Part shown: positions 48,001 to 51,000 of the stretch, in pieces
How positions within the stretch are numbered: position 1 is the first letter of the stretch
Layout: each line of letters begins with the position of its first letter
From: Rhynchobatus australiae
Taxonomy: Eukaryota
DNA length: 64,000 nt
Assembly (NCBI GenBank): GCA_034780895.1
Contig: JAUZTB010000076.1
Span: 93,367,374-93,431,373, forward strand
Reading direction: 5' to 3'
Position numbers: made by a program

Positions 48001-51000
48001 TACTACAGCCTTCCAGACTCAACAATGACTTCAACAAGTTGGTATACTGATTCTATCATTCTTATTTATTTTCACTCTAGACTTATCTTCTGTTACTTTC
48101 CTCATCCCATGGCCTACCCTTTTGCTGTGCATCATCACCTCTCCCTCCTTCAACTCCTTCATAGACCTTTTGTACTTATATCCTGAAAAGAACTCATAAA
48201 ACGGAATGCGTATTATGTCACCATCAGATCCCAAAGTTTTGAAAAACATTCAAAATATTAACAGCAAACCAAATTCAACACAAACAAATACAAAGAATAA
48301 TTTTACTCACAAGTATTAATGAAAAGTAAACTAAAATAAATTTGAAGGATTACTCAGTGGATTTCATATCCTGGGATAGTGCTTTCTGCTTTTCCAATAC
48401 AATTGTTTCAAAATGCCCCTTCATCTTTGGATATTGTTCAAGTGTTTCATTAAAGTCTGCCTTTGAAATTGTATAGAATTTACATGGTGTAATAGCTGTT
48501 ACTGTGGCTTCCCTTTTCTCATCAGTTAGGATGCTCATTTCTGTAAAAGCAGAGAAATAAACAAAGAAGACAGAGAGGTCAGAGTGGGAATCAAACAGAA
48601 TTGAAGTGATCGACCACATGCCCAGATGAGGTGCCGTTCCTTGAACTTATGTTGGGCAATGCTGGAGCAATATGGGAGGCCGAAGACAGAGAGAGCAAAG
48701 CAGAATGGAGAATTAAAGTGACAGATGACTGTAAGTTCAGGGTTAGCCTTGCAGACTGAACAGAGATGTTCTGCAAAGCGTCACCTAATCTGTGTTTAGT
48801 TTATCCAATGCAAAGGAGACCATATTATGAGCACTGAATACAATACACTAAATTGGAAGAAGTACAATTGAATTGCTGCTTCACCACAAAGAACTGTTTG
48901 GGTCCCTGGATGGTGGAAAGGGAAGAGGTAAATGTACAAGTGTTGCATCTCTTGCAGTTGCATGGGAAAGTGTTGTGAGAAAAGGGGTGGTAGACGGTTG
49001 TGAAAGAGTGGACCATTGATTCAAAGAAGATGTGCCTGGAATCCCAATGAAGGTGGCAGAAGGATGGTTCATCAAATGTGGAGGTTAGTAGGGAAGAAGG
49101 TGAGGACAAAGAGAACCTTTTCCTTGTCCTGTTCGGGAGGAAAGTGGGTGAAAGCAGAAGTGAGGGTAATGGTTGGGAGTTTTCTCAACATTAGAGAGAA
49201 GGGAAGGCATGATGAAGGAAAAAGGAAGACACTGACTTGGAAAATATCATAAGGAGATATAATAGAGCTGGAGAAACTGGGATTATTGAATGGAATCTTT
49301 CCAAGAAGCAGGTGGAAAGAGGCTTTGTTTAGATAACTGTAGGAGCCAGTATCCTTATCATGGAAATTGATCACCAACTTATCCCAAGACTGATCACCAA
49401 TTTATCCCAAGATTGAGGCTGCAGTTTGACAAAATCATCAAACCTGCTGACAAGGGCATTGTTGTTGTAGTTCAACAAAAGACCCCAGCTCTCAGGCATT
49501 GCTTTATTTTCACAATCCCTTCTGATTGTCACTTTCTGATTCCAAATAATCAGTCCTCAGCAGAGGTCTTAGCTTGATCTCCCTAACTGAATGAATCTTG
49601 AATTGAACATGATGCTGATATCTTCTTACCCTGCTTTTGCTTCTTTGTCCATTTCTTTCTCCAGGAGTCCTCACTCAAGACTGTAGATCCTTTCTCCCAT
49701 CTCCAGAATTCCCAATCTAAATGGATCCTTCCAACAACCTCTTACCCTCTCAATATTATCTGTCGCTAACTGCCGACATGACATTGATCCTCTCAATCTT
49801 TTCCACAGCTTTACTCACCCATGATCCTCAGAACTTGCAGCACTCTATTTAATAAGGACCAAACCTGACATCTTTATAAAACCAGCTGGCAAGGGTAGTG
49901 CTGTTGTGATTTGTCAAACTGACCTCTACCTTACAGAAGCTCTCAGACACTTCCTCATTTCTCCCACCTGACTGTGACCCTACCATTGAACATCAGACCA
50001 TTTTNNNNNNNNNNNNNNNNNNNNNNNNNNNNNNNACCTCTCCACAGCCTTCAGCCTTATAGCCCTTAACCTTGCACATCCCATTTCTCCTTCCCAAGAT
50101 TCACAATCAGGAGTGCATGCTCTTACCCAGAAAGATTGTTTCTTCCTACCCTGACTGGTTTTTATTTTCACCCCTCATCTAGTCCCTTTCCACTTACATT
50201 CCTGACACCTCCGATGTCCCCCGCCAGTTAAATTCCCAGTTTCCTTATCCCAACAGGTTTATCTTCACTATGGACATCCTATCTCTCTACATCTCCACCC
50301 TTTACCAGAATAATCTGAGGGCCCTGTACTTGAACAGAAGCCCAACTAATCTCATAGAAACAGGACCTAGAGCAGGATTAGGCCATTCAGTCTTTACAGC
50401 CTGCTCTGCCATTCTACATGATCCTCAATCTCAACAGTTTATTTCTGTACTCTTCTTATGTCCTTTGTTGCCAAATTCCATGATGACTTTGTCTAATCTC
50501 ATTAATATTTTCTAAGTGTCCTCTCTCACATCCTTTATTTTAAGGTCTTGGATTTTGCTTGTTACTGATGTTGGATTACCTCCCTCCTTTTTTTTATAAT
50601 ACTGGTGATAAATTTACTTTTCACCATCACTCTCCTTTGCTGAAGGTATTCTTGCATTGAAAAGCTTTTCTAACTCCATTCATTGTCCCCATGTCAATGG
50701 TGTAGCTACAAGAACTTTCATGGACCCANNNNNNNNNNNNNNNNNNNNNNNNNNNNNNNNNNNNNNNNNNCTTCAGTTTTATTTAGACCCTCTCCCTCAG
50801 AACGATATGGAGTCCTTACAGAAAACAAGTTGAAAGGAGGTAATAGTCAAGATAATTGCGAGTCAGTTGGCTTATAATGGAAACTGGTTGCTAATCTTGA
50901 GATGGGGATACAGTGACGACTGGTTCCTGCACTCCTTCGGAACTTGAACATTTTCACTACCTTGCTGTCACATTCACATGGTCCATTTCTGAATCTTCCT

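What the first reader, a model, noticed from the sequence alone, without database searches (positions are those of the whole stretch)
48350..48540. Divergent HCN-like channel gene convergent with MMP17
Seen: a clean acceptor and a 62-codon open exon embedded in decayed repeats. It aligns without gaps to the HCN CNBD exon and has the same phase-1 junction. Known: HCN1-4 are nearly invariant in this segment, yet this exon is only about 45% identical by hand alignment. Human MMP17 lies between SFSWAP and ULK1, with no HCN gene there. Teleost HCN-like channels such as zebrafish sperm HCNL1 conduct protons through the voltage sensor. Inference: this is a chondrichthyan member of a non-canonical HCN-like lineage, possibly sperm-expressed and lost from this locus in mammals. 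Pore and voltage-sensor exons are not visible in the window, so ion selectivity cannot be judged.
Basis: partly seen in the sequence, partly recalled or inferred. Interest (0 to 1): 0.75.

Follow-up and report, generated by a model that had tools for sequence, protein, structure and literature searches.

The report
Last exon of shark HCN-like channel
This stretch is the final protein-coding exon of a cartilaginous-fish ion-channel gene that is related to, but lies outside, the heart and brain pacemaker channels HCN1-4; related genes are already predicted in other sharks and rays, but no one has tested what they do.

Summary
On the minus strand, 48540..48350 has a strong acceptor, a phase-1 start, 62 open codons and a TAA stop. 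It encodes the end of a cyclic-nucleotide-binding domain (CNBD). The best solved-structure matches are HCN4/2/1 (E 1.3e-8), and it is 42% identical, without gaps, to skate HCN1.

It is the terminal coding exon, not an internal one. The closest database protein (85% identical, named "HCN4-like") ends at the same residue. Related predicted proteins exist in other cartilaginous fishes (76-85% identical). No upstream exon is visible in 48541..64000.

In a 65-row tree, full-length orthologues fall in a fully supported clade with short bony-fish HCN-like proteins, outside HCN1-4. A clade joining them to HCN1-4 is rejected (AU p 0.0016).

The orthologues carry CLDYG/CLDYA in place of the CIGYG filter. 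They keep Lys at the S4 position where proton-conducting HCNL1 has Met. They have Glu next to the phosphate-binding Arg. The Asp and the Glu occur only in this lineage (6 and 5 of 253 rows).

A membrane-type MMP's last exon lies tail to tail 15.3 kb away. Orthology to HCNL1 or HCNL2, expression and ion selectivity stay open.

Verdict: new member of a known kind, moderate interest.

The parts
48350..48540 (-). Terminal coding exon of an HCN-like channel gene. It holds 2 bases of a split Glu codon, 62 codons and TAA (48352..48350). It encodes the end of the phosphate-binding cassette, the last beta strands and the B and C helices of the CNBD, plus a short tail.
   Evidence: sequence and frame; Pfam cNMP_binding positions 54-89/89; HCN4/2/1 CNBD, E 1.3e-8; 85% identity to P0002, same C-terminus.
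48541..48560 (-). Splice acceptor: a pyrimidine-rich tract ending in CAG, with AG at 48542..48541. The intron is phase 1.
   Evidence: The phase follows from the orthologues' ...LGEMSIL... against the exon's AA ATG AGC.
48065..48070 (-). First AATAAA downstream of the stop (279 bases after it). Candidate polyadenylation signal only.
   Evidence: Two more lie at 47876 and 47775. No transcript evidence.
48653..48954 (.). Decayed interspersed repeat inside the last intron, just upstream of the exon. It has an inverted copy at 51219..51480.
   Evidence: 178 bases at 73.6% and 83 bases at 74.7%. Pfam found no domain in its ORFs.
32655..33065 (+). Context: ORF holding the last coding exon of a membrane-type matrix metalloproteinase (last hemopexin blade, stalk, hydrophobic tail, stop). 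It lies tail to tail with the HCN-like gene.
   Evidence: MMP-14 hemopexin blade 4, E 2e-16; Pfam Hemopexin E 6.1e-10. The name MMP17 was not tested.

Best explanation
Window 48540..48350 (minus strand) is the last coding exon of this cartilaginous fish's copy of an HCN-like channel gene. The gene belongs to a vertebrate lineage that branches outside the pacemaker channels HCN1-4, together with short (about 480-600 residue) bony-fish HCN-like proteins.

Shown:
- The exon encodes the C-terminal third of the CNBD and ends the protein about 20 residues after the C helix. The subunit therefore lacks the long tail of HCN1-4.
- The preceding exon is at least 15.5 kb upstream or lies in an assembly gap.

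Inferred from orthologues in other chondrichthyans; the exons concerned are not in this window:
- The subunit has a six-helix HCN architecture and an S4 with the charge register R R K R S R R S/N R. This should sense hyperpolarisation as HCN channels do.
- Its selectivity filter reads CLDYG (or CLDYA) instead of CIGYG. In HCN and Kv channels, replacing the first Gly of GYG gives non-conducting subunits (Discussion passages of PMC7306766).
- So the central pore most likely does not carry the usual Na+/K+ current.

Seen in this exon itself: the residue after the phosphate-binding Arg is Glu (KREAT in place of RRTAS). This puts a negative charge at the cyclic-phosphate site. I infer weak or no cAMP/cGMP gating.

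My committed reading is a hyperpolarisation-sensing HCN-like subunit with an altered or closed central pore and a largely ligand-insensitive CNBD. It would act through a non-canonical conductance or as a modulating subunit. It would not use the HCNL1-type proton path, because the Met that creates that path is Lys here.
For: Identity of the exon:
- (CNBD end; the 29 best solved-structure matches are all HCN).
- 5 named relatives among 46 candidates, 76-85% identical. tblastn of 4 of them hits only this exon, E 4.6e-29 to 6.9e-24. P0002 has the same C-terminus.

Lineage:
- after the two chondrichthyan representatives, the next of 14,455 hits scores E 5.9e-103 at 39% identity.
- 65-row IQ-TREE with a C20 PMSF model. 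The chondrichthyan rows are 100/100. They sit inside a 13-row clade (100/100) with bony-fish HCN-like rows. The HCN1-4 rows form a separate 100/100 clade.
- AU p 0.0016 against chondrichthyan rows plus HCN1-4.

Residues:
- Asp at the first Gly of GYG in 6 of 253 HCN-family rows, all of this lineage.
- Glu after the PBC Arg in 5 of 253 rows, all of this lineage, and also in the window exon.
- S4 third position is Lys. The eighth is Ser or Asn in the 3 rows that include S4.

Conservation: the exon is 76% identical to the Callorhinchus protein. This argues for a working exon.

Paper: PMC7306766, Results parts 1-2 and passages of the Discussion read.
Against: - Only one exon of the gene is in the window, so S4, pore and N-terminus of this species' gene were not seen.
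- No transcript evidence is available.
- Every public orthologue model is incomplete in some part. The models may be imperfect, or the gene may be alternatively spliced.
- The phosphate-binding Arg itself is kept, so cyclic-nucleotide binding is not excluded.
- A changed filter need not be closed. A ring of four Asp could give a different selectivity.
- The exon alone is closer to canonical HCN1 (42% over 50 residues) than to the bony-fish HCN-like P0009 (32% over 60 residues). The placement therefore rests on the full-length orthologues.
- The fork joining the 13-row clade to the clade holding the S4-Met representative has support of only 94/80.
Confidence: 0.8

Rival explanations
1. It is a true functional equivalent of zebrafish HCNL1/HCNL2: a hyperpolarisation-activated proton channel that conducts through its voltage sensor, with a dead central pore.
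For: - It lies in the same broad non-canonical grouping as a representative with Met at the third S4 position and a TVSYG filter (P0089).
- The CIGYG filter is lost.
- The C-terminus is short, as in the 60-kDa HCNL1.
- The S4 charge string is interrupted at the eighth position (Ser/Asn) in 3 of 3 rows with S4. Gaps in the Arg string can open gating pores (PMC7306766).
Against: - The residue that PMC7306766 shows to be key (Met at the third S4 position; M169R abolishes the current) is Lys in all 3 chondrichthyan rows that include S4.
- A review says the essential phosphate-binding Arg is absent from HCNL1 (PMC10651576, passage). It is present here.
- The reference HCNL1/2 sequences could not be put in the tree.
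Confidence: 0.2
2. It is an orphan exon: the remnant of an HCN-like gene that has decayed in this species, kept open by chance.
For: - No other exon of the gene is found in the 15.5 kb upstream that the window shows.
- The exon sits next to decayed repeats.
- No transcript data.
Against: - The acceptor is intact and the 62 codons are open.
- The stop is at the orthologue's own C-terminus.
- 52/61 residues are identical and 58/61 similar to P0002, and the exon is 76% identical to a chimaera protein.
- The exon is single-copy.
- A last intron longer than 15 kb is not tested here, and seven N runs lie in 50005..63969.
Confidence: 0.07
3. It is a fast-evolving copy of one of the canonical channels HCN1-4 (the databases name the relatives 'HCN1-like', 'HCN2-like' and 'HCN4-like').
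For: - Source names.
- The exon alone is 42% identical to skate HCN1, more than to bony-fish HCN-like P0009.
Against: - The tree places the lineage outside a 100/100 HCN1-4 clade that already includes a skate HCN1.
- AU p 0.0016 against union with HCN1-4.
- The three different '-like' names given to one lineage look like automatic labels.
Confidence: 0.03

Closest known systems
Predicted chondrichthyan 'HCN1-like / HCN2-like / HCN4-like' proteins (P0002, P0003-5, P0007 from Amblyraja, P0008; P0006 from Callorhinchus milii)
   Same: Orthologues. The exon is 85%, 79% and 76% identical to them. P0002 has the same stop position. All share Glu after the PBC Arg, and the full-length forms share the CLDYG/CLDYA filter.
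   Different: They come from other species. They are automatic predictions with no tested function. Each model lacks some part (S3, S4-S5, or this very exon).
Zebrafish HCNL1 and the HCNL1/HCNL2 subfamily (Wobig et al. 2020, PMC7306766)
   Same: HCN-like proteins outside HCN1-4. They share loss of the CIGYG filter, a short protein without the long C-terminal tail, and restriction to 'fish' (49 genes by the paper's count).
   Different: - The third S4 position is Lys, not Met.
- The filter is CLDYG/CLDYA, not WPFLE/WISTK (HCNL1) or AISYG/QISYG/ALSYG (HCNL2).
- The phosphate-binding Arg is kept.
- The main text of the paper never mentions sharks or cartilaginous fish (0 occurrences). Its species table is in a supplement I could not open.
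- Orthology was not tested, because the reference sequences were not obtainable.
Canonical HCN1-4 pacemaker channels
   Same: The CNBD end aligns without gaps (42% identity). The orthologues share the S1-S6, C-linker and CNBD layout and the Ser at the fifth S4 position.
   Different: - Separate clade.
- Filter Gly replaced by Asp.
- S4 register RRKRSRR(S/N)R against RRRKSRRRR. The latter occurs with CIGYG in 139 proteins, the commonest combination among the 283 proteins scanned.
- KREAT against RRTAS in the binding cassette.
- The protein stops soon after the C helix, whereas skate HCN1 runs about 300 residues further.
Bony-fish short HCN-like proteins with a TLNYG filter (P0009, P0010, P0012, P0071, P0172 from Sardina, P0173)
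   Same: Same 13-row clade (100/100), similar length, Lys at the third S4 position, first Gly of the filter replaced.
   Different: About 38-45% identity to the chondrichthyan proteins. They have Asn, not Asp, in the filter. Three of them also lack the binding Arg. Branching order inside the clade is unresolved.

Membership tests
HCN channel family in the broad sense | C-terminal cyclic-nucleotide-binding domain of HCN type | tested here: met
   Exon: Pfam cNMP_binding E 4.5e-6. Only the last 36 profile positions are covered, and 27.0 bits is just under the 27.5 cut-off. The top 29 solved-structure matches are HCN CNBDs. Orthologues pass the cut-off (53.6-54.7 bits).
HCN channel family in the broad sense | Six transmembrane helices with a long, charged S4 and a Ser at its fifth position | tested here: inconclusive
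   Not in the window. Present in orthologues P0005, P0007 and P0008. Pfam Ion_trans on P0005 gives only 23 bits against a cut-off of 25.
HCN channel family in the broad sense | CIGYG selectivity filter | tested here: not met
   Orthologues have CLDYG (P0003-5, P0008) or CLDYA (P0002, P0007). Asp at this column occurs in 6 of 253 rows, all of this lineage. The exon concerned is not in the window.
Canonical HCN1-4 | Nesting within the vertebrate HCN1-4 clade | tested here: not met
   The 13 named HCN1-4 rows form their own 100/100 clade. AU p 0.0016 against adding the chondrichthyan rows.
Canonical HCN1-4 | Long C-terminal extension after the CNBD | tested here: not met
   TAA at 48352..48350, about 20 residues after the C helix. 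Skate HCN1 aligns at 618-667 of 980 residues.
HCNL1/HCNL2 (Wobig et al. 2020) | Placement in the HCN-like subfamily with the reference zebrafish sequences | tested here: inconclusive
   The lineage groups with bony-fish HCN-like proteins and, at 94/80, next to a clade holding an S4-Met/TVSYG representative. The references XP_002662296 and QKM75727 could not be fetched. None of the five motifs WPFLE, WISTK, AISYG, QISYG, ALSYG occurs in a candidate HCN-like protein among the 283 held; the only occurrence is ALSYG in P0086, which falls among the unnamed HCN representatives, outside the non-canonical HCN-like clades.
HCNL1/HCNL2 (Wobig et al. 2020) | [quoted passage not shown] | tested here: not met
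   Lys in P0005, P0007 and P0008. Tested on orthologues only, because the S4 exon is not in the window.
HCNL1/HCNL2 (Wobig et al. 2020) | Canonical filter motif lost | tested here: met
   CLDYG/CLDYA in orthologues.
HCNL1/HCNL2 (Wobig et al. 2020) | Proton selectivity and insensitivity to cyclic nucleotides | not testable with these tools
   Needs electrophysiology. The sequence hints are mixed: the Arg is kept, but a lineage-specific Glu sits beside it.
MMP17 (neighbour gene) | Hemopexin domain followed by a GPI-type hydrophobic tail; orthology to MMP17 | tested here: inconclusive
   A hemopexin blade and a hydrophobic tail are present. The zinc-motif exon is not in the window.

The most novel reading that the evidence does not exclude
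The cartilaginous-fish proteins form a third, undescribed branch of the HCN-like channels. The branch is old enough to be shared by chimaeras, skates and sharks. Its central filter carries a ring of four Asp (CLDYG), its S4 charge string is broken at the eighth position rather than the third, and a Glu blocks the cyclic-phosphate site. Such a channel could have a conductance of a kind not yet seen in this family, for example a divalent-cation or proton path opened by hyperpolarisation. It would also show what the ancestor of the teleost proton channel HCNL1 looked like before the Met appeared.
Probability: 0.25. Interest if true: 0.7.

Novelty: new member of a known kind. Interest (0 to 1): 0.42.

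Why it matters
HCNL1 is one of very few known proton channels, and the paper that described it reports the family from fish only. A conserved cartilaginous-fish relative would push the origin of non-canonical HCN-like channels back to early jawed vertebrates. It lacks the proton-pore Met but has its own filter and binding-site changes. That gives a natural comparison for asking which changes turn a pacemaker channel into something else. For genome annotation, the database names 'HCN1-like', 'HCN2-like' and 'HCN4-like' mislead: the proteins they label here are not HCN1-4 copies. The gene itself is already predicted in public genomes, so the finding is a correct reading rather than a discovery.

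Tried and rejected
I went on with single ORFs and short motifs.
- A search for the MMP zinc motif found none in any frame. A list of plus-strand ORFs in 14000..32700 showed no further hemopexin exon by eye.
- Pfam on 9 ORFs of suspected repeats gave 1 match (ALKBH8_N at 38078..38341) and none for the ORFs beside the exon. My recalled impression of a Penelope-like GIY-YIG remnant there is therefore not supported by a tool.
Full species names of most hits stayed unknown, because names are cut off.
- I tried to recognise zebrafish HCNL1 from the residue numbers in the papers (H43, H50, F96, M169, FLE 271-273). P0010 has its S2 Phe at 96, and the spacing from S4 to the filter is 102 in many proteins. 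This is a lead only, not used as evidence.
- Literature: HCNL1 occurs in 7 papers and HCNL2 in 2. 'HCN-like' with 'cartilaginous' occurs in 1 paper, the herring paper. 'HCN channel', 'gene family' and 'Callorhinchus' together occur in 0. A four-term search was badly framed and told me nothing.
- Not done: structure prediction, complex prediction and the protein atlas. At about 40% identity to solved HCN channels they would not have changed the verdict.
- Not used: genome contigs, which holds bacteria and archaea only.
- Closed, so unchecked: metagenome contigs, viral contigs and paper supplements.
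Full report
THE OBSERVATION

On the minus strand, a pyrimidine-rich tract (48560..48543) ends in AG at 48542..48541. From 48540 the sequence reads AA ATG AGC .... There are 62 open codons and then TAA at 48352..48350.

Orthologous proteins read ...LGEMSILTD at this point. The Glu codon is therefore split G|AA, and the intron is phase 1.

The peptide (P0001) matches the last 36 positions of Pfam cNMP_binding. 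The E-value is 4.5e-6, and 27.0 bits is just under the 27.5 cut-off, as expected for a third of a domain.

Against all solved structures, 65 sequences match at E<=10. The 29 best are HCN1, HCN2 or HCN4 chains (E 1.3e-8 to 1.9e-7). KCNH2 and PKA regulatory subunits come far behind (E about 0.08).

The exon is single-copy in the window. The intron just upstream (48653..48954) has an inverted copy at 51219..51480 that is about 74% identical. So 'embedded in decayed repeats' is right on that side.

I do not take the window for human. Its best protein matches are cartilaginous-fish proteins.

The exon is the terminal coding exon. The closest database protein, P0002 (465 aa, named 'HCN4-like isoform X2'), is 52/61 identical and 58/61 similar. 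It ends at the same residue. So the protein stops about 20 residues after the C helix. Skate HCN1 runs some 300 residues further.

The first AATAAA lies 279 bases after the stop. It is a candidate only.

RELATIVES

A word-seeded search for longer proteins found 5 relatives among 46 candidates:
- P0002 (85% identical);
- three isoforms named 'HCN1-like' (79%);
- a Callorhinchus milii CNBD protein (76%).

tblastn of four of these against the window hits only this exon (E 4.6e-29 to 6.9e-24). Every other match has E >= 0.35.

No further exon of the gene is therefore visible in 48541..64000. The preceding exon lies beyond the window or in one of the seven N runs between 50005 and 63969. I did not fill or look up those runs.

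Only one exon of this gene is present, so it was searched on its own. The MMP exon was also searched alone.

PLACEMENT

Searching P0005 against 1.84 billion representatives gave 14,455 hits at E<=0.001. After two chondrichthyan representatives, the next best hit is at E 5.9e-103 and 39% identity. The lineage therefore stands well apart from everything else.

A profile search returned named HCN1-4 proteins of many vertebrates and two more short fish proteins, one of them from Sardina (120 of 621 hits listed).

I aligned 65 rows to a seed HMM:
- 3 chondrichthyan rows;
- 16 non-canonical rows;
- 13 named HCN1-4 rows;
- 1 tick HCN;
- 27 unnamed representatives;
- 5 CNG channels as outgroup.

The other 218 proteins held were left out. 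Among them were the isoforms P0002-4, P0011, the partial P0060 and all primate entries. I built a tree with IQ-TREE, LG+C20+F+G4 PMSF, over 515 columns.

The tree shows:
- The chondrichthyan rows form a 100/100 group.
- That group sits inside a 100/100 clade of 13 rows. The other members are bony-fish HCN-like proteins with filters TLNYG, SLGYG, TIGYA, SISYG and SVGYG.
- That clade is joined, at 94/80, to a 6-row clade. The 6-row clade includes P0089, the only row with Met at the third S4 position, and it has a TVSYG filter.
- HCN1-4, including skate HCN1, form their own 100/100 clade.

Forcing the chondrichthyan rows together with HCN1-4 costs 119.7 log-likelihood units (AU p 0.0016). Branching order inside the 13-row clade is unresolved.

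COMPARISON WITH HCNL1/2

I read Results parts 1 and 2 and passages of the Discussion of PMC7306766. The paper says:
- There are 49 genes, 'all from fish', in two groups.
- The CIGYG filter is lost: WPFLE/WISTK in HCNL1, and AISYG/QISYG/ALSYG in HCNL2.
- Met sits at the third S4 position (M169). Changing it to Arg abolishes the proton current.
- The channel is insensitive to cyclic nucleotides.
- The protein is about 60 kDa.

A review passage says the binding Arg is absent from HCNL1 (PMC10651576).

The words 'shark' and 'cartilag' do not occur in the main text of PMC7306766.

In the chondrichthyan orthologues:
- The filter is CLDYG or CLDYA.
- S4 reads R R K R S R R S/N R, against R R R K S R R R R. 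The latter occurs with CIGYG in 139 proteins, the commonest combination among the 283 proteins scanned.
- The third position is therefore Lys, not Met.

Over 253 aligned HCN-family rows:
- Asp at the first filter Gly occurs in 6 rows.
- Glu after the binding Arg occurs in 5 rows.
- All of these rows belong to this lineage.
- The window exon itself has the Glu (KREAT).

I could not obtain the zebrafish reference sequences. None of their five filter motifs occurs in a candidate HCN-like protein among those held; the only occurrence is ALSYG in P0086, which lies outside the non-canonical HCN-like clades. Orthology to HCNL1 or HCNL2 is therefore open.

HOW IT MOST LIKELY WORKS

Shown: the exon supplies the end of the binding cassette, the last strands and the B and C helices of a CNBD, and it terminates a short subunit.

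Inferred from orthologues:
- A six-helix HCN-type subunit whose S4 should respond to hyperpolarisation.
- A filter whose first Gly is replaced. In HCN4 and Kv channels such a change gives non-conducting subunits (PMC7306766 Discussion).
- A binding site with an added negative charge.

I commit to the following reading: a hyperpolarisation-sensing subunit with an altered or closed central pore and weak or absent cyclic-nucleotide gating. The HCNL1-type proton path is less likely, because the key Met is missing. The gap at the eighth S4 position leaves some room for a different gating pore.

NEIGHBOUR GENE

A plus-strand ORF at 32655..33065 carries the last hemopexin blade (Pfam E 6.1e-10). Its best solved match is blade 4 of MMP-14 (E 2e-16). 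It also has a stalk, a hydrophobic tail and a stop, 15,285 bases from the HCN-like stop.

Neither was tested.

NOVELTY

The gene is already predicted in several public cartilaginous-fish genomes under misleading '-like' names. The HCN-like family is published.

In the held library I found no paper that describes a chondrichthyan HCN-like channel:
- HCNL1 occurs in 7 papers and HCNL2 in 2.
- 'HCN-like' with 'cartilaginous' occurs in 1 paper, the herring paper.
- 'HCN channel', 'gene family' and 'Callorhinchus' together occur in 0 papers.

I rate it a new member of a known kind, of moderate interest to channel biologists.

LEFT UNCHECKED
- Upstream exons beyond the window.
- Transcripts.
- Synteny in other species.
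- Full species names of hits (one search was switched off).
- Supplements, metagenome and viral collections (closed).

Noticed in passing
window 32655..33065 (+): Last coding exon of a membrane-type matrix metalloproteinase: final hemopexin blade, Ser/Asp-rich stalk, hydrophobic C-terminal tail, stop at 33063..33065. No zinc-motif exon is in the window, and no other hemopexin exon was found in 14000..32700.
   Followed up: partly
database proteins P0002, P0004, P0005, P0007, P0008 (orthologues, not window): Every public model of the chondrichthyan HCN-like gene lacks a part. P0005 lacks S3. P0004 and P0002 lack S4-S5. P0007 has a different C-terminus in place of the exon studied here. P0008 stops in the C-linker. 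The cause is either alternative splicing or imperfect gene models.
   Followed up: partly
window 48653..48954 and 51219..51480: Inverted pair of a decayed interspersed repeat (about 74% identical) in the last intron of the HCN-like gene. Its ORFs reminded me of a Penelope-like element, but Pfam found nothing.
   Followed up: partly
window 38078..38341 (-): An 88-residue ORF matches Pfam ALKBH8_N (E 5.5e-9). The surrounding ORFs look like retroelement remains, so this is probably a mobile-element tail rather than a gene.
   Followed up: no
window 10384..11454, both strands: Long open frames rich in Pro, Ser, Leu and His on both strands. This looks like low-complexity or repeat sequence, not coding.
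   Followed up: no
whole window: 23 runs of N (10 to 872 bases). Seven of them lie in 50005..63969, inside the presumed last intron. They were left as they are.
   Followed up: no
representatives P0043, P0091, P0069, P0089 (not window): A sister clade of unnamed HCN-like proteins has a neutral residue (Tyr, Tyr, Leu, Met) at the third S4 position and filters GNSYG, GNSYG, GVGYG, TVSYG. These may be the published HCNL group or further variants of it. Their organisms are unknown.
   Followed up: partly
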